Virus record (IMG/VR): IMGVR_UViG_3300046463_000715
Coordinates: 1,868-65,867 of that record
DNA from: a virus
Lineage: Duplodnaviria; Caudoviricetes
Direction: 5' to 3' (one strand)
DNA: 64,000 nt
Made by a program: the position numbers and the translations under genes. This document shows positions 20,446 to 54,981 of this stretch, piece by piece (position 1 is the first letter of the stretch; each line of letters starts with the position of its first letter). The notes under the pieces were generated by a model that saw nothing but the letters and a program-made list of their open reading frames with translations, was not told where the DNA came from and searched no databases.

Positions 20446-21987
20446 TCAGTAATACCGTTTAGCCCGATTTGGGGTCGGCTTCACGTCGAGCGGACCGGTT
20501 AAACCCTTTTTCCCCTCGACCTCGGCGCGGATAAGTTTCAAGCAGTTGAACTTGCCGTAGCGCGATGCGTCCGCGATATGGTCGAAGTTGCCGCCGGACG
20601 GTCCTTTGAGCGGCTCGTCTCCTCCGAAGCCCGCCTCACCCTCGACAGGATACCGGTAGCCGCCCAGGCTCGCGACGTAAAGCATCGGGCAGCACTCCTT
20701 GTCGATTTGATAAATGTGGTTGCCCCACGAGTCTTTCTTTTCGAGGAGCCGGTTGTAGACGGCGATTGACTCCGAGAGACCCATCCGCATGAAGCCAGGA
20801 TAAATTTCGTAGGTGCTCAGCACTTTGATGTTGGAGCCGAGGGAGGTCTTGGCGTTGCCCGCTGGGTCGCAATAATCCTTCACACCGTTGCAGACGGAGC
20901 GGTCATTCCAGAAAGGGAAAACTGTGTTCGTGATTTCGAGGACGGCTTTACACTGCCGGTCGGTGTCGGACTGCATCGAGAATTGTTCCGCGAGGTCCCA
21001 CCAGTATTCGTCCTTGCCCACGGTCCAGTAGGCGGAGAAGACACACGAGTTGGTCGCACCGAAGTCCCACGAGCGAATCAGATATGCGCCCTTGGGCCAC
21101 GGCAAATCTTTTTTCGAGTGCGGCTCCTCGAAGGCGTAGAACACGGGGGTGCCGTTGAAGGCCTCGGCGTATTCTCCGAGCACCATCCGCTTATACATCG
21201 CAGCGTTCTTGCGGTATTGCCGCTCCAGGTCCTGGACGTAGTTGGGCGGGAGGTTGTGTGCGTTTTCTTTTGTCGGGATGTGCCAGAAGCGAACAGCGAC
21301 GTCGTCCTTGGTCTCCTCTTCATACGATGCAATCCAGTGGCGCGGAGAAGGAGGATTTGTGTCGAGGATGACGCAGGTGTCTTTGATGAAGCCACGGGGG
21401 TCACACGTCTCCGGGTCCGCGCCCTTCCATCGCAAGCAGGCGACTCCGAGGTCGAGGTCACCACGCGAGAGCTGGTCGGCTTCGACGAAGATGAGCATTG
21501 AGCACTCGTAACCCCTGAACCGTGTTGCGGAGTAGCGCTCCTCGGGGACACCGGCGAATTGAATCCAGCTGCAGAACTTATTGCCGACAGCTTCGAACCA
21601 TTGGAGGATTGCACTCTTCGGCGCGGCTGGGTTCATCGCCTTCCATGCGTTGAAGAGCTCGACGGCTTTCTTCGACGGGATGCGATAAGTTTTTCCACCG
21701 TCGATTTTCTTGAAGAGCGAGACACCTGTGTCCATGTATGCGGTGCCGAGTTTCGGGAACACTTGCTTTTCAAAAGTTTCGAGAGTCGTGTCTTCGTTCG
21801 AGTCCTGAGTCTTCCGGAGAATGTAAATTTTGCCGCCAGCATTCCAGAAGCCGTGGCCGACTGCTTCCATCGCAATCGCTGTGGTTTTTCCAGTTCCACG
21901 ACCACCGATGAGAGCGCGCACACGGCACTTGGTCGCGTGGAATTCTTTGATTGAGTTACCTGGAAAATACCACTCAGCTGTCTGCAT
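20446..21987 (-). CDS. terL: terminase large subunit
   Basis: Walker A GGRGTGKT, Walker B IFVEADQ, TNP coupling motif, nuclease WDFG, DPAG, DHIADA. Confidence 0.92.
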   Translation of the reverse strand: MQTAEWYFPGNSIKEFHATKCRVRALIGGRGTGKTTAIAMEAVGHGFWNAGGKIYILRKTQDSNEDTTLETFEKQVFPKLGTAYMDTGVSLFKKIDGGKTYRIPSKKAVELFNAWKAMNPAAPKSAILQWFEAVGNKFCSWIQFAGVPEERYSATRFRGYECSMLIFVEADQLSRGDLDLGVACLRWKGADPETCDPRGFIKDTCVILDTNPPSPRHWIASYEEETKDDVAVRFWHIPTKENAHNLPPNYVQDLERQYRKNAAMYKRMVLGEYAEAFNGTPVFYAFEEPHSKKDLPWPKGAYLIRSWDFGATNSCVFSAYWTVGKDEYWWDLAEQFSMQSDTDRQCKAVLEITNTVFPFWNDRSVCNGVKDYCDPAGNAKTSLGSNIKVLSTYEIYPGFMRMGLSESIAVYNRLLEKKDSWGNHIYQIDKECCPMLYVASLGGYRYPVEGEAGFGGDEPLKGPSGGNFDHIADASRYGKFNCLKLIRAEVEGKKGLTGPLDVKPTPNRAKRYY

Positions 21988-22314: not shown

Positions 22315-22820
22315 GAAAATTGTTACGGGGTCATCAGGTCGCCGCGAGGATTGTCGCTGGTCGAGCCACTTGAGCCCTTGCGGTCTTCCTGGTTCACCGG
22401 CTGGGAGCGCGAATCACTCGGAGAGAATTCGGCCACTCGCGGAGCCTGCTTGGCTTCGGTGCCGGGGCGCTGTTCGTCAGTTTGTCGCATGTCACTCATA
22501 CGTTAGTTCCTCGGGGTTCGAGACCCGTTCTTTGCGGAGCAATACTCAGCAAGGCGTTTGGCCCGCTGGTCTCGCTCGTTTTTCTGTTTCCGCCCAGCGA
22601 CGGCTTTTCCTTCAGGAGAAGCTGCCCAGGCGTTAATAGCACGAATTGATTCGAGTCCACCCATAATGCTTCAATATACCACGACTCTTTGGGTTTGGCT
22701 ACCGCTTCGTGGCGAACCGGACGACGACGCAGGCGGCAAAGGTGTAGATGGCAACCTTCGCCAGAAAGGCGACGGCGCTGATTGCTAGGACGAATTCGAT
22801 TGGCATGATGGTGACTTTGG

Positions 22821-23042
22821 TCATGCGCGATGGGCTTCGATAACAGCGTTGAATGCTCGCGCACAAGCAAACTGTTTCCTGGTTCCGAAAGGTCTCCACA
22901 AAACTGTGGTCCCTCCGCCCTGGATTGGGATTGTGACTTCGGTGTGAGTCGAGGACATACGGACGATGTTCGACGCGCCTTGAGCTCGGAGAGCCCTGGC
23001 TTGCTTTGCGCTGGTCGCAATAAGAATCTCTTCCTTCATCAC
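22821..23042 (-). CDS. hypothetical protein
   Basis: 73 aa; TTGACA-N18-CATATT immediately upstream. Confidence 0.45.
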   Translation of the reverse strand: MMKEEILIATSAKQARALRAQGASNIVRMSSTHTEVTIPIQGGGTTVLWRPFGTRKQFACARAFNAVIEAHRA

Positions 23043-23077
23043 TATAATATGAGCCGAGGTCGGCTAAATTGTCAAAT

Positions 23078-23145
23078 CCAGGGGTTTCCCCGGGGCTCGG
23101 ATTAGTAAGATATTTGTTGACACCTAACCGGTGAGGGTATACCGT
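23078..23145 (+). promoter_or_regulatory. 31-bp conserved element plus promoter
   Basis: CCAGGGGTTTCCCCGGGGCTCGGATTAGTAA, then TTGACA-N17-TACCGT. Confidence 0.6.
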
Positions 23146-23151
23146 ATCCCC

Positions 23152-24231
23152 ATGAACGAACGACAGAGCAGAATGGAAGAGCTGAAGGCGAAAATCGCCG
23201 AGCTGAGCAAGGCCCTCGAAGCCTCCTTTAACGCTGCCCAGAACGACGAGCTGGTGAAGGCCGACGATGAATTCTACCAGCTGTCCCTCGAAGAGGAACG
23301 TGCCTTCCGCGCCCCTCACAACCCCTCGAATTTCCATCCAGAAGACTACGAAGTGGTCGAATACCTGGACAACCAGCCGCCCCGTCTCGCGAGCTTCTGC
23401 GCGCCCCTGAGCTCCTTCTCGGACCACCAGCGCTCGGTTGAGGCTCACCAGCGGATGATGGACGCCTGGAGGAAGGAAATGGACTTCTTCTTCCCGAACC
23501 GTCGCGAGCACAAGCCCTCCATCCACCAATGCACCCACTGCGGGAACACCAGGGTCCGCTACATCGTGGCCTGCCTGCACAAGCCCTCTGGCCAGCACGT
23601 CGTGTTCGGCTCGGACTGTGTCGAACGCCTCGGCTTTGCCAACCAGTCGTCCTTCAAAGCCGCCCAGATTCGCTCCCGCGCCGAAGCTGGCAACGCCCGC
23701 ATGGCTGCTTTTGTAGCGCGCCAGAAGTTCCTCGCTGCGAACCCGAACGTCGCTGCCGCGATTAATGACCTGACCTCTAATGTCGAGCTCCACAAGCGGA
23801 ACAATTTCGCCCACGACATCCTGGCGAAGTTCAATAAATACGGGAACATGAGCGAGCCCCAGCAGTATCACTTTGTGAAATCCCTGGAGCGCGACCACGA
23901 GTTTGCCGCCCGCCGTGCCGCCGAAGACGCTGTGCCGAAGGGTGAATTCCCCAGCGGTCGCATCCAGTTCACCGGCGAAGTCATCAGCGTCAAACAGCAG
24001 GAAAGCGATTTCGGCATCCAGATGAAGTGCCTCCTGAAAATCATTTCCGAGGTCGGCACCGGCTGCAAAGTCTGGATGACCCTCCCCTCCGGAGCTGGCG
24101 AGGTCTCCCGTGGTGACCGTATCGTGGTGAAGGCCGGACTGGAAGTCTCGAAGGACGACAAATCCTTCGGATTCGGGAAGCGCCCGCACTTCGTGTCTAA
24201 AATTGAAAACACCCCGGCAGTTGCCGCTTGA
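23152..24231 (+). CDS. Zn-binding protein with a possible C-terminal OB fold
   Basis: CTHCG...FGSDC motif; strong C/G-ending codon bias; start inferred at MNERQ. Confidence 0.7.
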   Translation: MNERQSRMEELKAKIAELSKALEASFNAAQNDELVKADDEFYQLSLEEERAFRAPHNPSNFHPEDYEVVEYLDNQPPRLASFCAPLSSFSDHQRSVEAHQRMMDAWRKEMDFFFPNRREHKPSIHQCTHCGNTRVRYIVACLHKPSGQHVVFGSDCVERLGFANQSSFKAAQIRSRAEAGNARMAAFVARQKFLAANPNVAAAINDLTSNVELHKRNNFAHDILAKFNKYGNMSEPQQYHFVKSLERDHEFAARRAAEDAVPKGEFPSGRIQFTGEVISVKQQESDFGIQMKCLLKIISEVGTGCKVWMTLPSGAGEVSRGDRIVVKAGLEVSKDDKSFGFGKRPHFVSKIENTPAVAA

Positions 24232-24263: not shown

Positions 24264-24533
24264 ATGAATTCGACGTTTGGATTTCACGGTCTCCTGAAGG
24301 ATGCCATAAGCGAAGCCCGCAAGCTGGCAGTAAAATACGACGAGTCGATTAGGGTCTGGGACATCGCCAGCAAAAAGGACCCGGACTGCGAGGTCCAGGG
24401 CGTGGCGAAGTCTTACACCCTGGCAACAGACGAGGCCGACAGAAGGGTCAGCGGTATAATGGTCGCGAGGGTGTGGCCGGGAGGGACCTTGGATGTCTAT
24501 TCAAAGCGGTTTGCAGAAAGAAACGGACTGTGA
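24264..24533 (+). CDS. hypothetical protein
   Basis: 89 aa; TTGACA at 24228 upstream. Confidence 0.55.
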   Translation: MNSTFGFHGLLKDAISEARKLAVKYDESIRVWDIASKKDPDCEVQGVAKSYTLATDEADRRVSGIMVARVWPGGTLDVYSKRFAERNGL

Positions 24534-24887
24534 AAAAGAAACCGATTAAAATCCGCCGGACTTGGGGCACGCTCAAGCCGGTCACCAGGGTCAAGGGTTC
24601 AAAGAAAATCTACCGGCGCGACAACCGGCCCCCGGCGGAGTGATATTATGCTACTCATATTCGTCAGCTTTTGCATCGGCCTGTGTTTGCTCTTCACCGC
24701 AATCGGTGCGGCCTGCCTCGTCGCCAAGTGGGCCTGGGAGAAGCTGGTCGACCTTATTCAGGTCATCTTCCAGCGGTAAGCTCCAAAGCTGGACGCACCG
24801 CAGCAGGTAGAAGTAATTCCCCTTCGGGTCTTTCTTGAGATACCGCTTCAGCCGGTGCGGGTTACAGCAGAGCAGGGTCACAAAAAC

Positions 24888-25015
24888 TCAATCGCGCCCG
24901 GGAATCGAACCCAGTCCTCTCGGTAGGCAGTGGCAATTTTCCCACGGCAACCCAAGTGTGTCGAAGCCACCTGAAGCGAGCGCTCGCCCAGGACGCACAA
25001 CACTGACGCGATTGA
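24888..25015 (-). ncRNA. tRNA-like RNA with extended D and anticodon arms, no CCA
   Basis: TCAATCGCGT/GCGCGATTGA closing stem, CTGGG-TTCGATT-CCCGG T arm, AGGA variable loop. Confidence 0.7.
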
Positions 25016-25186
25016 TAAACTCATGGTCGAGGGTCGATGGTGCTGAAGGCGCATCTGCACCGCTCACACCCGACAAAATTCTGGCCCCACTGCCGCCAAG
25101 TAATGTGGTGGTGCTTGCGGTGGGCCACGCGACACCATAAAATCGCGAGGCGTAATTTGAACAGCTTCATGTCAATTCAATTGATT

Positions 25187-25480
25187 TTACGTCGACTCAA
25201 TTGATTTTACCGAGTCAACGTCTCCCGTTACGATTTTCCTCCAGCGCTTCGCGATGTCGAGCGGTCCCGGTTCGCTGTGCTTGCCGTCGCTGTTGTCGTA
25301 ACCCAGGACCTTGTTCATGTCCAGAATCGACTGGCCCCGGCTGGAGATTTCGACGTCCATGAGCTCGATAATTTCTCGGAGCCTTCTCTCCCGAATGTCG
25401 TCGGGATGAAAACAGTCGTCGATTAATTGCGAAGCCTCTTCGGCGAGCGGGCTGAGCTCGTAACCTATTGGACCTTTCAT
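25187..25480 (-). CDS. hypothetical protein
   Basis: start-stop overlap with the upstream ORF. Confidence 0.5.
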   Translation of the reverse strand: MKGPIGYELSPLAEEASQLIDDCFHPDDIRERRLREIIELMDVEISSRGQSILDMNKVLGYDNSDGKHSEPGPLDIAKRWRKIVTGDVDSVKSIEST

Positions 25481-25713
25481 GATTTTGTTCTGTAGGAGTT
25501 GCAGCCGAACGGTCGGCCAATTAGTGTTGAGATTGAGTGACACGTCGTGCAGGGCCTGGACGAAAACTGGTGCGGGTCTTTCTCCGTCAGTTCCAGGGCG
25601 ACTTCCAACTGAGCGGAGCGCGCTGCCGATTTCAGAAGCTGAGTCTGGGCCTTGAGCTCGTTCTCAAGCTCTTCAATCCGGTCGTTCATCGCTGCCCATT
25701 CCGAAGCGCTCAA
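25477..25713 (-). CDS. coiled-coil + CxxC protein
   Basis: 78 aa, RPCTTC. Confidence 0.5.
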   Translation of the reverse strand: MSASEWAAMNDRIEELENELKAQTQLLKSAARSAQLEVALELTEKDPHQFSSRPCTTCHSISTLIGRPFGCNSYRTKS

Positions 25714-33575: not shown

Positions 33576-34565
33576 TTATAGTTTCCTGGTAGACGCTCGG
33601 GCCATTCGCCAGAAGTTTCTGATAGAACTCTGATAGAACTGCGCGAACCCTACCACTGTGCCGTTGAGAATCTGTTTCGAAAACTCATCGAACAGCCGCT
33701 GCTTAATCCAGTCGGTCTCCTCGGCCAGGATGTCGGCCTGAATCTCTCTGCAGAGCGGGCCAATGTCCTTGTTCTCGTTCGTCAGCTTACCGGCTTCGCG
33801 CAGGTGCTGAATAGCCTTGAGCCAGCGTGCCTCGGTGCGCAAACAGTTCGTGAGCTTCTCGACAATCTCTTTCGCTCCGTCCTTGCCTGGGTTGCCAGGG
33901 ATAGTTGCGCGCTTCTCTTTGAAAGCAGGCGCGACGATTTTAGCAGTCATCGGGGCCTTCGCTAACCTGTGGTCGAGCGGTGTCGAGCTCTCGGATTCGG
34001 GGTGAACCTTCGAGTAGTTCTTCACCACCACACCCTCGACCTTTACACCACCGAGCTGAGACTCGCGGGAGTGATACTCGCCGAAGCTGTCGAAGTTCGT
34101 AGTCACCGGAAGGTAGCCCTGGTAAAAGACCTGGACCGCTTCGATGCCGAGCTCTGCTGCCCACATTTCACGCGCACCGCGACCGGCGTAGGAGCCATCC
34201 GGCAGTCGGACATCGAACAGCACGAGGTTGTTCTTCGGCACGCGAGAGTAGGCCAGGATGTTGTGCTTCGGCTTCGCGAGATACTCGCATTGAAAGATAA
34301 GGCCTTCGAGGCTGACGGTGTGACTGCTTCTGTAGAGCACCATCTGCACCGCGCCCACGGCGTTGCTGAAGGCCAGCTTAAACATGCCCGGGTCGTTGGG
34401 GTCAATCGGCTGGCCCTTGCTGCGGCACTCAATCTTGCCGTTGACGACACCGAAGCTGAATTGCGAGCCGTCGATTTTCTCCTCGACCTGGACGAGGTCT
34501 TCGAAGATGCAGCTGTTGTGGCGCTGACCTAGCGCGTAGATTTTCGGAATGCTTGGGAGGTTCAT
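33576..34565 (-). CDS. ATP-dependent RNA ligase (Rnl2-like)
   Basis: motif I EEKIDGSQF, III FQCEY, IIIa VLFDV, IV EGVVVK, V AKIV, helical C-domain. Confidence 0.85.
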   Translation of the reverse strand: MNLPSIPKIYALGQRHNSCIFEDLVQVEEKIDGSQFSFGVVNGKIECRSKGQPIDPNDPGMFKLAFSNAVGAVQMVLYRSSHTVSLEGLIFQCEYLAKPKHNILAYSRVPKNNLVLFDVRLPDGSYAGRGAREMWAAELGIEAVQVFYQGYLPVTTNFDSFGEYHSRESQLGGVKVEGVVVKNYSKVHPESESSTPLDHRLAKAPMTAKIVAPAFKEKRATIPGNPGKDGAKEIVEKLTNCLRTEARWLKAIQHLREAGKLTNENKDIGPLCREIQADILAEETDWIKQRLFDEFSKQILNGTVVGFAQFYQSSIRNFWRMARASTRKL

Positions 34566-52782: not shown

Positions 52783-54036
52783 ATGGCATCACACTGGACA
52801 GACTCTGAAATCAAACTCCTCGGCACAAAACCTGACAACGCACTAGCAGCCCAACTCGGGCGGAGCTATACCAGCGTCAGAGTGGCGAGAATGCGTCGGG
52901 CAATCCCGGCTTTTAACTCCCAAGACTCTTCGAAGGAAACAACCTTCGAGCAGGACCGAAACGCTGTCGACACTCAGGTGTGGCGTTCGCGCTACGCTCA
53001 GCTCGAACGGAAATACACGAAGGCCCTGCAGGAAAATTCTGTTGTGGCTCAGCTCGTCGCTGAAATCAAGGACTGCGCTCCGCAAAGTTACAGCCCGCTC
53101 CCGCCGGTCAAGTTCGAAAAGCGCAGCTCAAGCTCGGGCCAGAGCGCCGTGCTTCAGTTCTCCGACACTCACGCTGGCAAGGTCGTCTCTCCGGAGCAGA
53201 CACTCGGCTTCGGCGGCTACAACTTTCCCACCTTCCTGGCGCGCCTCAAATACCTGGAGAATTCCATGCTCTCCATCTGCACGAATCACTCGACGGTGCC
53301 GATTGACGAGCTCGTAATTGCGATGCTGGGCGACATGCTCGACGGCAATTTGCAACACGCAGTCGAGGCCGGTCAGCGGAACACACTCTTCTCCCAATAC
53401 TTCAACGCCGGTCACGCAATCGCGCAGATGTTCCGGAACGTCGCCGCGCACTTTCCGAAGGTTCGGGTGAAGACCTGCGTCGGCAATCACACACGCTGGG
53501 CTAATCAGAGAAAGATGCCCACCGAGAACCGGTTCTCGAACCTCGACCAATTTCTGTATGCCCTGGTGCAGGCCCTCGTCAAGGACATCCCGAACATCGA
53601 GTTTGACCTGGATGCGCAACCCTTCGCCCTCTTCGACGTCAAGGGATTCGTCTTCCACGCTGCGCACGGTGACCACTGGCGCGGAGGAGACAAGAACCTC
53701 GGCATTCCGAACCACGCAATCGGGCGTGAGATTTCCACGAAGGTCCAGCTCTTCGCCAAGAACGGCAGGAAGGCCCCGGACTTTTATTTGGTCGGGCATC
53801 TGCACCGCGAAATCACCATCCCGCACGCGACCGGCTCGGTTCTCATTAACGGCGGCTTCCCCGGGCTCGACAATTACGCCCTGGCGGAGAACTTCAATCC
53901 GGTTGACCCCACTCAGAAGCTTTTCTTCGTCCACCACAAATACGGGAAGACAGCGGAGTATTCTCTGTCGCTCAAGTTCGCCAAGGTCACGAGCGAAGCG
54001 CCCTACACCCTGCCCCCTAACTTCACAGTCGAATAA
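52783..54036 (+). CDS. calcineurin-like metallophosphoesterase with N-terminal HTH
   Basis: SDTH, GD, GNH, HG, GHLH motifs. Confidence 0.85.
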   Translation: MASHWTDSEIKLLGTKPDNALAAQLGRSYTSVRVARMRRAIPAFNSQDSSKETTFEQDRNAVDTQVWRSRYAQLERKYTKALQENSVVAQLVAEIKDCAPQSYSPLPPVKFEKRSSSSGQSAVLQFSDTHAGKVVSPEQTLGFGGYNFPTFLARLKYLENSMLSICTNHSTVPIDELVIAMLGDMLDGNLQHAVEAGQRNTLFSQYFNAGHAIAQMFRNVAAHFPKVRVKTCVGNHTRWANQRKMPTENRFSNLDQFLYALVQALVKDIPNIEFDLDAQPFALFDVKGFVFHAAHGDHWRGGDKNLGIPNHAIGREISTKVQLFAKNGRKAPDFYLVGHLHREITIPHATGSVLINGGFPGLDNYALAENFNPVDPTQKLFFVHHKYGKTAEYSLSLKFAKVTSEAPYTLPPNFTVE

Positions 54037-54231: not shown

Positions 54232-54527
54232 AAGCATCTGACGAAACACGCTCAAAAATCACCGCACTGTTTGAACAGTTCAAACCAGCACTCGATGGCT
54301 ACCACGACTACGCGCAGCGGGTCACCGCACTCTCAGAAGAATACCATAAGGCACGCTTTGCTGAGAGCTTTTCTACTCCCGTCGAGGAGCTCACCCTTTT
54401 GGCGCAACTCCACGCCCATCAAACACCGAAGACGCTGGACGAATTTCTGGCGAAGCTTCCGGCAGGTGTGGCAGTCAAACGCATTATCCACGACCGCAAA
54501 AATTACACTTACTATATCTATGTCTGA
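54228..54527 (+). CDS. hypothetical protein
   Basis: ATGA overlap. Confidence 0.5.
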   Translation: MKASDETRSKITALFEQFKPALDGYHDYAQRVTALSEEYHKARFAESFSTPVEELTLLAQLHAHQTPKTLDEFLAKLPAGVAVKRIIHDRKNYTYYIYV

Positions 54528-54981
54528 CGCAAAAATTCCCGACACCGCAAACCCCAAAGACGCGCAGGCGCGCAAAAAAGTCCCCATCGGTCTCGTCCCT
54601 CCAGCCCTCGTCATTGGCGCGGCTGAAGCACTCGCAGACGGAGCCCGGAAGTATGGGGCTTACAACTGGCGCGACATCGCGATTCAGTATTCGGTCTACA
54701 TCGAAGCGATTGAGCGGCACACCCTGGCGCTCAAAGACGGCGAAGACATCGCAGCTGATTCTCTGATTCACCACGTCAAGCACATCGCTGCCGGTTGCGC
54801 CATTATCCTGGACGCCCTCGGGCACGGCAACCTTATCGACGACCGCAAGCCCGGACCTGGGGCTAAGCTCCTCGCCGAGGCCCACCAGAAGCGTCTGCAG
54901 GCCCTCCAAGCAGCTCCGCCCGCCCCGAAAGCCGTTGAAACGGTCCAGGGCAAGACCTTCGACAGCGGAGAAGGCTGGTAA
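54520..54981 (+). CDS. dATP/dGTP diphosphohydrolase (DUF5664-like)
   Basis: NPKD...LVPP...GARKYGAYNWR...RH...GED...H..H. Confidence 0.85.
   Translation: MSDAKIPDTANPKDAQARKKVPIGLVPPALVIGAAEALADGARKYGAYNWRDIAIQYSVYIEAIERHTLALKDGEDIAADSLIHHVKHIAAGCAIILDALGHGNLIDDRKPGPGAKLLAEAHQKRLQALQAAPPAPKAVETVQGKTFDSGEGW

What the first reader, a model, noticed from the sequence alone, without database searches (positions are those of the whole stretch)
24888..25015. 128-nt tRNA mimic with hypertrophied D and anticodon arms
Seen on the minus strand: closing/acceptor stem TCAATCGCGT/GCGCGATTGA, then a 2-nt CA linker. The D-position arm is about 50 nt (GTGTTG/CGACAC enclosing CCTGG/TCAGG and a terminal GCGAG/CTCGC hairpin). 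The anticodon-position arm is about 38 nt (CTTGG/CCGAG ... GTGG-GAAAATTG-CCAC). An AGGA variable loop precedes a canonical T arm CTGGG-TTCGATT-CCCGG. There is no CCA. The cloverleaf order is exact but the arms are too long for decoding. Inference: it keeps the acceptor/T surface read by RNase P/Z, CCA enzymes or EF-Tu, and may act as a decoy or processing signal.
Basis: partly seen in the sequence, partly recalled or inferred. Interest (0 to 1): 0.8.

Follow-up and report, generated by a model that had tools for sequence, protein, structure and literature searches.

The report
Remodelled phage mini-tmRNA-like RNA element
A soil phage carries a 128-base element that folds like a bloated tRNA but is most likely a remodelled, non-chargeable copy of the tRNA-like end of tmRNA, a kind of small gene that turns out to be common in phages.

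Summary
Window 25015..24888 (minus strand) folds into the described four-way cloverleaf (-57.9 kcal/mol, z -2.64). ARAGORN and Rfam do not call it, and it has no CCA. The window is a 65.9-kb metagenomic tailed phage. The element lies between convergent genes and is followed by a U tract.

Only one other copy was found, in a close relative (L002). Its 8 substitutions and 1 indel break none of the 42 pairs (simulated chance 1.5%). No anticodon register is shared by the two copies, so it does not decode.

It is closer to tmRNA than to tRNA. GGCUUCGAC (the tmRNA D-loop-analogue motif), a capped helix, GGAC and the T arm occur in the same order and spacing as in a family of about 82-nt "tRNA-like-domain-only" mini-tmRNAs. 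I found 102 typical copies among 117 pattern matches in viral contigs. A profile of 57 of them aligns to the element from that motif to the T arm (nhmmer E 2.7e-4).

The element lacks the GGG...UCCA(CCA) alanine acceptor end, has a new 10-bp closing stem, and pairs the motif into a long helix. The covariance models do not recognise it as a full member. Best reading: a derived, non-chargeable mini-tmRNA, possibly an SmpB decoy. It could also be a relic. Expression is untested.

The parts
24888..25015 (-). The whole 128-nt element (element position p = 25016 - window coordinate)
   Evidence: Fold. Conserved block in L002:863-989 between two indels. R1 scores 159 and 154 bits.
25006..25015 (-). 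5' strand of the 10-bp closing stem (UCAAUCGCGU). The inner 7 bp would be the acceptor-like helix.
   Evidence: U5-A124 becomes U5.G124 in L002.
24958..25003 (-). D-position arm, positions 13-58. Irregular long hairpin, identical in both haplotypes.
   Evidence: Pair probabilities 0.91-1.0. No variation, so no covariation test is possible.
24960..24968 (-). GGCUUCGAC, positions 48-56. Matches the tmRNA / mini-tmRNA D-loop-analogue motif. Here it is predicted to be paired.
   Evidence: Rfam tmRNA consensus GGaUUCGAC printed. Family listing. nhmmer alignment. Forcing it open costs +10.5 kcal/mol.
24919..24956 (-). Anticodon-position arm, equivalent to helix 2 plus a cap (positions 60-97). Its apical part (68-89) holds 7 of the 9 differences from L002, including one compensatory G-C to A-U change.
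24898..24918 (-). AGGA junction plus the T arm CUGGG-UUCGAUU-CCCGG
   Evidence: R2 local hit 24914-24898. The family has GGAC before the T stem.
24888..24897 (-). 3' strand of the closing stem (GCGCGAUUGA). GCGCG is shared with the bona fide mini-tmRNA in L082, which continues UCCACCA.
24882..24886 (-). U tract one base after the closing stem (UUUUU; UUUU in L002)
   Evidence: The terminator scan did not call it, because the structure is not a simple hairpin.
25187..25543 (-). Upstream gene on the same strand (118 aa; 82 aa in L002). The element follows its stop codon, after 31 nt in L002.
25022..25170 (-). 49-aa Cys/His-rich ORF just upstream of the element. Present only in the window haplotype.
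24648..24779 (+). Convergent 43-aa hydrophobic ORF. It is the last gene of a plus-strand cassette (23131-24231, 24264-24533, 24648-24779). In L002 its stop codon abuts the element.

Best explanation
The element is an evolutionary derivative of a phage 'mini-tmRNA', a roughly 82-nt gene that keeps only the tRNA-like domain (TLD) of tmRNA.

What it retains, in order:
- the D-loop-analogue motif (U)GGCUUCGAC
- a helix-2-like stem closed by a cap
- GGAC
- the T arm

What has changed:
- The alanine acceptor end (5' GGG..., G3.U70, 3' UCCA-CCA) has been replaced by a new 10-bp closing stem.
- An added 5' segment now pairs with the motif to form a long arm.

How it would be made (inferred): it is transcribed as the last part of a minus-strand operon and ends at the U tract that follows the closing stem.

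What it does (inferred):
- It cannot be charged or decode.
- If functional, it most likely acts as a stable, non-chargeable TLD mimic that binds the tmRNA partner SmpB and so dampens host trans-translation. It may also bind other readers of the T-arm/acceptor surface.

Shown here: the structure, its strand, its conservation in one relative, and its likeness to the mini-tmRNA family. Inferred: transcription, the RNA ends, SmpB binding and any effect on the host.
For: Structure and strand
-.
- Four G.U pairs in the window copy, and one more in L002, would be A.C mismatches on the other strand.

Conservation
- L002 keeps the element at 93% identity, while 140-nt and 105-nt indels cut exactly at its borders.
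- 0 of 42 pairs are broken by 8 substitutions plus 1 indel. One change is compensatory and two are wobble-preserving. In simulation, 1.5% of random placements break no pair.
- The 1-nt indel shifts every reading frame, and the substitutions show no third-position bias, so the element is not coding.

Not decoding
- In every possible register, the 7-nt 'anticodon loop' differs between the two haplotypes and has a pyrimidine at position 37 (read).

Link to tmRNA
- The exact 20-mer covering the T loop, the 3' T stem and GCGCG recurs in L082. There Rfam tmRNA aligns an 82-nt TLD-only molecule (34.9 bits, E 6.5e-11), and R2 scores it at 52.5 bits.
- Of the 117 matches other than the window, 102 have a 5' GGG and a 3' YCCA.
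- 5 of 5 loci tested (of the 117) pass Rfam's tmRNA gathering score as 81-83-nt matches (58-76 bits against 47).
- Control: 1 of 159 ARAGORN tRNAs in the same loci has the motif upstream of its T loop.
- An HMM of 57 family members finds the element as the best hit in the window (E 2.7e-4), aligned continuously from the motif to the T arm.
- Bona fide members with an equally long cap and the same GGCUUCGAC variant exist (L148/L170, gap 46 against 47 here).
- One TerL relative (G023, 56% TerL identity) carries a canonical TLD-only gene (31.7 bits).

Literature
- Hudson et al. 2014 (PMC4131195, passages read) list mycobacteriophage DS6A as 'TLD only'.
- The same passage says a similar molecule, chargeable or not, strongly inhibits tmRNA, perhaps by titrating SmpB.
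Against: - Rfam's tmRNA model does not reach E<=10 on the element.
- The family covariance model R2 aligns only the T arm (15.3 bits, E 0.059 in the window; 17.7 bits in L002).
- The element has no 5' GGG, no G3.U70 and no UCCA/CCA.
- The family was collected with a pattern taken from the element's own two motifs, so the nhmmer hit is partly circular.
- The motif is predicted to be paired (probability >0.99). Opening it costs 10.5 kcal/mol, which may prevent a TLD-like fold and SmpB binding.
- Only two haplotypes are known. Positions 1-67 do not vary, so the long arm has no covariation support.
- No RNA data exist.
- 0 of 8 complete relatives carry the element.
- No SmpB gene is encoded by the phage, so any partner would be the unknown host's.
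Confidence: 0.5

Rival explanations
1. Relic. The element is a decaying mini-tmRNA gene, or now serves only as a bulky terminator or barrier between convergent operons. Its RNA has no trans-acting role.
For: - It has lost every feature needed for charging.
- It is confined to two near-identical haplotypes. It is absent from 47 related records and from 29 loci around homologues of the neighbouring gene.
- It sits exactly between convergent genes and is followed by a U tract on the correct strand in both haplotypes.
- The surrounding region is very plastic.
Against: - All 8 substitutions preserve pairing (1.5% by chance).
- A new, fully complementary 10-bp closing stem exists and is kept through a U-A to U.G change.
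- The flanking indels spare the element precisely.
- A simple hairpin would be enough for a terminator.
Confidence: 0.25
2. It is a tRNA-derived mimic, unrelated to tmRNA, that keeps the acceptor/T surface for RNase P/Z, the CCA enzyme or EF-Tu. It would act as a decoy for tRNA-targeting factors or as a processing signal.
For: - Cloverleaf order, 7/5-compatible acceptor/T stack and a canonical T loop.
- The base of the D stem, G13-C58 and U14-A57, resembles G10:C25 and Y11:R24. A12 resembles A9 and G100 resembles G46 (reading; the tRNA numbering is recalled).
- The phage also encodes an RNA ligase (PF09414) and a real tRNA-Met.
- A relative (L045) has odd tRNA-like genes.
Against: - There is no tRNA-model match, even at E<=10.
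- There is no U8, A14 or G18G19 in a D loop.
- The GGCUUCGAC...GGAC...T-arm layout fits the mini-tmRNA family. GGNTTCGAC in the 25-55-nt range upstream has a chance probability of about 5e-4 (my calculation: 31 positions x 4^-8), and 1 of 159 tRNAs shows it.
- The three extra closing pairs and the missing CCA do not favour RNase P or EF-Tu (inference).
Confidence: 0.15
3. A DNA-level site, for example an attP or ssrA fragment left by integration into a host tmRNA gene, or another protein-binding or recombination site.
For: - Phages often integrate into ssrA and carry its 3' end (passage in PMC9004378).
- One 20-mer hit (L081) lies at the edge of a provirus.
- Indels flank the element.
Against: - There is no tyrosine integrase in the CheckV-complete record.
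- The element holds both the 5' and the 3' TLD motifs only 47 nt apart, which an ssrA 3' fragment would not.
- It lacks the UCCACCA end needed to restore ssrA.
- G.U pairs and the asymmetry between strands argue for RNA.
Confidence: 0.03
4. An ordinary decoding tRNA interrupted by short introns or insertions.
For: - ARAGORN with introns at an 80% threshold gives tRNA-Ser(cga) with a 24-nt intron.
- A relative has an ARAGORN -i tRNA-Asn with a 14-nt insert.
Against: - The low-threshold call has mispaired acceptor and D stems and a 4-bp T stem.
- Default thresholds give nothing.
- The anticodon would differ between haplotypes in every register.
- No bulge-helix-bulge motif is present, and the insert is far too short for a bacterial group I intron (established knowledge).
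Confidence: 0.02

Closest known systems
TLD-only tmRNA-like genes of phages. Mycobacteriophage DS6A is listed as 'TLD only' in Hudson, Lau & Williams 2014 (PMC4131195, passages read). The same kind of gene was seen here in at least 102 viral-contig copies.
   Same: - (U)GGNUUCGAC motif
- short helix 2 closed by a cap
- GGAC
- T arm GGGUUCGAUUCCC
- no tag reading frame
- phage-borne, in a genome that also carries a tRNA gene
- shares a 20-mer with member L082
   Different: - no 5' GGG, no G3.U70 and no UCCA(CCA) acceptor end
- a new 10-bp closing stem made with a strand 37 nt further upstream
- the motif is paired into a 46-nt arm
- 128 nt rather than about 82 nt
- not recognised as full length by R2 or by Rfam tmRNA
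tmRNA (Rfam RF00023)
   Same: The two halves of the tRNA-like domain, in the same order, with a helix-2-like stem between them.
   Different: - no mRNA-like domain, pseudoknots or tag
- no alanine identity and no CCA
- no Rfam match at E<=10
Bacterial Y RNA YrlA (RF02553; Chen et al. 2014, PMC4201824, passages read)
   Same: A non-decoding RNA with a tRNA-like module. Some copies are phage-borne.
   Different: - YrlA is circularly permuted, with its ends in the anticodon-stem equivalent
- YrlA has a Ro-binding stem with a GNCGAA motif and lies next to rsr
- here there is no TROVE gene, no Rfam match and the topology is not permuted
mascRNA / MALAT1 3' tRNA-like structure (RF01684)
   Same: A tRNA-like fold at the 3' end of a longer transcript. 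It was the only Rfam model that aligned across the 3' half.
   Different: - 16 bits against a gathering score of 42.5, E 2.7
- a eukaryotic family
- likeness of shape only
Mitochondrial tmRNA of jakobids, reduced to the tRNA-like domain
   Same: A natural tmRNA reduced to its TLD.
   Different: It is organellar and chargeable, and it keeps the acceptor end.

Membership tests
Phage TLD-only mini-tmRNA (as defined here from 57 aligned copies, A5) | (U)GGNUUCGAC motif 25-55 nt upstream of the T arm GGGUUCGAUUCCC | tested here: met
   Element positions 48-56, with a gap of 47 nt. Note that this feature was used to collect the family.
Phage TLD-only mini-tmRNA | Helix between ...GAC and GGAC..., closed by a short cap | tested here: met
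   Stem 60-64/93-97 with a 28-nt cap. The junction is AGGA, one base shorter than the family's GGAC+NN.
Phage TLD-only mini-tmRNA | Acceptor stem 5' GGG... / ...UCC with G3.U70, discriminator A, and (C)CA | tested here: not met
   The closing stem is UCAAUCGCGU/GCGCGAUUGA followed by GUUUUU. 102 of the 117 other matches have GGG and YCCA.
Phage TLD-only mini-tmRNA | Full-length significant match to the family model | tested here: inconclusive
   CM R2 aligns the T arm only (15.3 bits, E 0.059). The sequence HMM aligns positions 11-72 of 84 (E 2.7e-4).
tmRNA (RF00023) | Rfam model match; tag reading frame; ARAGORN tmRNA call | tested here: not met
   No match at E<=10. ARAGORN -m finds nothing.
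tRNA (RF00005) | Detection by ARAGORN or Rfam; 7-nt anticodon loop with U33 and a purine at 37; D loop with G18G19 | tested here: not met
   The loops are 8 and 7 nt and differ between haplotypes.
tRNA (RF00005) | T arm with G53-C61 and UUCRANY loop, stacked on a 7-bp acceptor helix | tested here: met
YrlA / bacterial Y RNA | Neighbouring rsr (TROVE) gene; permuted tRNA-like module; Rfam RF02553 match | tested here: not met
   No TROVE domain in the whole record. No Rfam match. The topology is not permuted.
Intrinsic terminator | GC-rich hairpin directly followed by a U tract | tested here: inconclusive
   A U tract lies 1 nt after a 10-bp stem whose strands are 108 nt apart. The consensus scan does not call it.
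SmpB-binding RNA | Binds SmpB | not testable with these tools
   No RNA-protein test is available, and the host is unknown.

The most novel reading that the evidence does not exclude
A lytic soil phage has converted a chargeable mini-tmRNA into a closed, non-chargeable four-way-junction RNA. The SmpB-binding motif is masked by an added arm, and the helix-2 cap evolves fast (7 of 22 positions differ between co-occurring haplotypes, with pairing kept). On this reading it is a dedicated inhibitor of trans-translation, perhaps one that can be switched, or a new tRNA-scaffolded regulatory RNA. It would be one visible tip of a large, largely undescribed family of phage mini-tmRNAs.
Probability: 0.25. 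Interest if true: 0.65.

Novelty: new variant of a known kind. Interest (0 to 1): 0.45.

Why it matters
Phage tRNAs and tRNA mimics are now seen as tools against host defences. A phage RNA aimed at the tmRNA-SmpB ribosome-rescue system would be a different line of attack.

The element itself is a lineage-restricted oddity with no expression data. Tracing it did expose a family of about 82-nt TLD-only mini-tmRNA genes that is common in viral contigs:
- often inside tRNA clusters
- in 40 loci checked, ARAGORN's default mode made a tmRNA call over only 2 of the matches (both longer genes), and most matches got no call

In the papers I could search, I found only one phage example named (DS6A). If the derived form binds SmpB without being chargeable, it would be a natural version of the TLD inhibitor reported in that literature.

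Tried and rejected
More homologues of the element
- Seven pattern scans found only L002 or nothing: viral contigs; genome contigs; metagenome contigs. The window's own record may be left out of these scans.
- R1 found nothing beyond weak T-arm-driven hits in 48 TerL loci, in 29 loci around homologues of the 366-aa neighbour, or in 47 whole related records.
- blastn against isolated phages found nothing.

Expression
- No RNA holder was listed among the 24 sequencing runs.
- Four DNA runs, laid as contigs, showed only the two known haplotypes.

Antisense-loop idea (recalled analogy to the P1/P7 C4 RNA)
- No target that co-varies between the window and L002 was found.

Internal promoter
- The TCGACA-17-GAAAAT match inside the element is destroyed in L002.

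Small protein
- The frames are shifted by the 1-nt indel.

Paralogues
- None in the window.

Low-threshold ARAGORN call
- The tRNA-Ser call with an intron has poor pairing and was rejected.

Neighbouring genes
- The 496-aa minus-strand ORF next to the element is spurious. It has 1 fragment hit in 1.8 billion proteins, and the substitution phase fits the plus strand.
- The fold of the real 366-aa neighbour gave only generic OB-fold matches, with E >= 1.3e-3. I draw no link to the element from it.

Other
- allo-tRNA and tRNA-Sec-like readings were rejected because there is no long variable arm and no anticodon loop (passages of PMC5389517).
- Relatives cannot be drawn for a virus record.

Full report
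**Setting**

The window is bases 1868-65867 of a 65,867-bp IMG/VR virus record that CheckV rates complete. GC content is 56.7%.

It is a tailed phage. It encodes:
- a large terminase at 20446-21987 (-)
- a family-A DNA polymerase, a helicase, a PD-(D/E)XK nuclease, an RNA ligase (PF09414, 33576-34565 -) and a MazZ-like domain
- one tRNA-Met with an encoded CCA

It has no tyrosine integrase, no TROVE/Rsr gene and no SmpB gene.

The closest isolated phages share only 21-35% TerL identity (9 records). DNA runs that hold the stretch are labelled soil or rhizosphere metagenomes.

**The observation**

In element positions the parts are:
- a 10-bp closing stem
- a CA linker
- a 46-nt irregular arm (13-58)
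- A59
- a 38-nt arm (60-97)
- AGGA
- a canonical T arm
- then G-UUUUU, with no CCA

The fold is stable: -57.9 kcal/mol, z -2.64, and 2 of 200 shuffles as good. It is strand-specific, since the plus strand gives -41.4 kcal/mol and z -1.22. It survives in a 221-nt context.

ARAGORN does not call it in default mode, with introns or in tmRNA mode. Rfam has nothing at gathering score. At E<=10 there is only mascRNA at 16 bits.

**Gene context**

The long minus-strand ORF beside the element (22699-24189) is not a gene.
- It has one 44-aa fragment hit among 1.84 billion representative proteins.
- Between the window and its relative, 27 of 37 substitutions in 23131-24189 fall on the third codon position of the plus-strand frame.
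- The plus-strand 366-aa protein has 40 homologues.

So a plus-strand cassette (23131-24231, 24264-24533, 24648-24779) converges on the element. The element follows a minus-strand gene (25187-25543).

**The one close relative**

L002 (TerL 99% identical) holds the element at 863-989.

L002 lacks the 140 nt upstream of the element, which in the window hold a 49-aa ORF, and the 105 nt downstream. There the element fills the gap between the two convergent stop codons.

Contigs of four DNA runs showed only these two haplotypes, and both occur in two of the runs.

The copies differ by 8 substitutions and one 1-nt indel.
- None of the 42 pairs is broken.
- One pair changes G-C to A-U. Two pairs change between Watson-Crick and wobble.
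- Random placement of the same substitutions leaves all pairs intact in 1.5% of 200,000 trials.
- Positions 1-67 are identical, and 7 of the 9 differences lie in positions 68-89.
- The indel shifts every frame, so no peptide is conserved.
- In every register a 7-nt "anticodon loop" would read a different anticodon in the two haplotypes, with a pyrimidine at position 37.

The element is therefore a maintained, non-coding, non-decoding structure. The sample is two sequences, and the long arm has no covariation support.

**Search for further copies**

Nothing further turned up.
- R1 hit only 2 of 49 sources, the window and L002.
- R1 hit 0 of 29 loci around homologues of the 366-aa protein.
- R1 hit 0 of 47 whole related records at E<=0.01, 8 of them at least 90% complete.
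- Seven pattern scans gave only L002 or nothing.
- The flanking genes themselves have no homologues in the other TerL loci, so the region is highly mosaic.

**The turn to tmRNA**

The exact 20-mer covering the T loop, the 3' T stem and GCGCG occurs in four other viral contigs. ARAGORN calls a (doubtful) tRNA in only one of the four.

In L082, Rfam's tmRNA model aligns an 82-nt molecule with the whole 296-nt body deleted (34.9 bits, E 6.5e-11, below the gathering score of 47). From 5' to 3' it reads:
- GGGCGCA
- a linker
- GGUUCGAC
- a helix with a cap
- GUAC
- the T arm
- CGCGUCC-ACCA

The element has the same landmarks in the same order: U-GGCUUCGAC (positions 47-56), a capped helix, GGAC, the T arm and GCGCG.

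Of the 117 matches outside the window:
- 102 have a 5' GGG and a 3' YCCA
- 6 are cases where the first motif is itself a T arm
- 9 are other, one of them cut by a contig end

Further checks on this family:
- I tested five of the 117 loci, and all five pass Rfam's tmRNA gathering score as 81-83-nt matches (58.2-76 bits).
- In 40 loci checked, ARAGORN's default mode made a tmRNA call over only two matches, as longer genes: one permuted, one with an atypical tag. Many copies sit inside tRNA clusters.
- As a control, 1 of 159 ARAGORN tRNAs in these loci has the motif upstream of its T loop.

This is a family of TLD-only "mini-tmRNAs".

**Is the element a member?**

I aligned 57 of the 80 distinct typical copies. 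The 23 I left out had longer caps or were near-duplicates.
- The sequence HMM finds the element as the best hit in the window (17.1 bits, E 2.7e-4). It aligns continuously from the motif to the T arm, with a 12-nt insertion in the cap.
- The covariance model R2 scores L082 at 52.5 bits. On the element it aligns only the T arm (15.3 bits, E 0.059; L002 17.7 bits).
- The family was gathered with the element's own two motifs, so the HMM hit is partly circular.

Independent points in favour:
- the U before GG
- the helix placed between GAC and GGAC
- the 20-mer shared with L082
- members with the same GGCUUCGAC variant and an equally long cap (L148/L170)
- a canonical TLD-only gene in one TerL relative, at another place in that genome (G023, 31.7 bits)

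Points against:
- the defining acceptor end (GGG, G3.U70, UCCA-CCA) is absent
- the closing stem uses a strand 37 nt further upstream
- the motif is paired with probability >0.99, and forcing it open costs 10.5 kcal/mol

I therefore call the element a derivative of this family, not a member in good standing.

**Mechanism**

Shown: the structure, its strand, its maintenance between two haplotypes, its position at the end of an operon with a U tract, and its likeness to the family.

Inferred: it is transcribed by read-through from the upstream genes. No conserved sigma-70 promoter is present, and the one consensus match inside the element is lost in L002. The transcript would end at the U tract.

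For function I rely on one passage of Hudson, Lau & Williams 2014 (PMC4131195). It says the DS6A phage sequence is little more than the TLD. [quoted passage not shown] That passage cites Mao et al. 2009, which I did not see.

On that basis the most likely role is a non-chargeable SmpB decoy. The masked motif lowers my confidence in this. A relic that survives as a bulky terminator is the main rival.

The YrlA reading fails on topology, on the missing neighbouring gene and on the model match (passages of PMC4201824). The attP/ssrA-fragment reading fails because both TLD halves are present 47 nt apart and there is no integrase.

**Novelty**

TLD-only tmRNA-like genes in phages are in print for DS6A. 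My library searches turned up no other phage example. Subscription journals and supplements were not searchable, so I do not claim the family is unpublished.

The element is a new variant: closed, non-chargeable and with an added arm.

Interest is moderate. The element is lineage-restricted and unproven. The family it led to may be the more useful result.

Noticed in passing
Loci L092-L208 (e.g. L098:13090-13171 -, L096:2455-2538 +, L100:6683-6766 +, L144:3630-3712 -): A large family of about 82-nt TLD-only mini-tmRNA genes in viral contigs. Layout: GGGG... acceptor with G3.U70, GGUUUCGAC, short capped helix, GGAC, T arm, ...CUCCA-C(CA). Many lie inside tRNA clusters. In 40 loci checked, ARAGORN's default mode made a tmRNA call over only 2 of the matches, both as longer genes. 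Rfam tmRNA scores 58-76 bits in the 5 loci tested.
   Followed up: partly
window 22699-24189 (-) versus 23131-24231 (+): The 496-aa minus-strand ORF is spurious. The real gene is a plus-strand 366-aa protein with 40 homologues. Its model (pLDDT 85.9) has an N-terminal coiled coil, a CxxC...C zinc-ribbon-like stretch and a C-terminal OB fold (weak Foldseek matches to IF1, RPA and the LysRS anticodon-binding domain, E >= 1.3e-3). It is followed by an 89-aa ORF and a 43-aa hydrophobic ORF.
   Followed up: partly
L045:1885-1974 and L045:2937-3250: A distant TerL relative (45% identity) carries odd tRNA-like genes. One is an ARAGORN -i tRNA-Asn(gtt) with a 14-nt insert in the anticodon loop. Beside its tRNA-Met lies an array with a sub-threshold YrlA-like match (23.4 bits against 69) and two sub-threshold tRNA matches.
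   Followed up: partly
window 25022-25170 (-) and 24780-24884: A 49-aa Cys/His-rich ORF and a 105-nt segment flank the element in the window haplotype only. The short (L002-type) and long haplotypes co-occur in contigs of two DNA runs (X7, X14).
   Followed up: partly
window 25177-25187 and 25197-25207 (-): Direct repeat AAATCAATTGA, two copies 20 nt apart (start to start). One overlaps the end of the upstream gene. It shares TCAAT/ATTGA with the ends of the element's closing stem. 4 matches at up to 1 mismatch, against 0.79 expected.
   Followed up: no
L082:3818-3944 (-): The bona fide mini-tmRNA in L082 is preceded by a 47-nt leader. Its start (GUGGGCGC) repeats the mature 5' strand and can close a 127-nt cloverleaf like that of the element. 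This gives two mutually exclusive folds.
   Followed up: no
window 33576-34565 (-), 52783-54036 (+), 54271-54981 (+): The phage encodes an RNA ligase (PF09414), a calcineurin-like phosphoesterase and a MazZ-like dATP/dGTP diphosphohydrolase N-terminal domain. Together these hint at RNA repair and nucleotide-pool manipulation.
   Followed up: no
L144:5916-6012 (-): A Pistol ribozyme match above gathering score (50.7 bits against 34.5) in a viral contig that also carries a mini-tmRNA.
   Followed up: no
L209:1501-1590 (-) (= G023:C1:25662-25751): A TerL relative (56% identity) has a canonical TLD-only gene with GGUUAAC in place of GGUUUCGAC. Its acceptor is GGGAGGG/CCCUUCC-A-C.
   Followed up: partly
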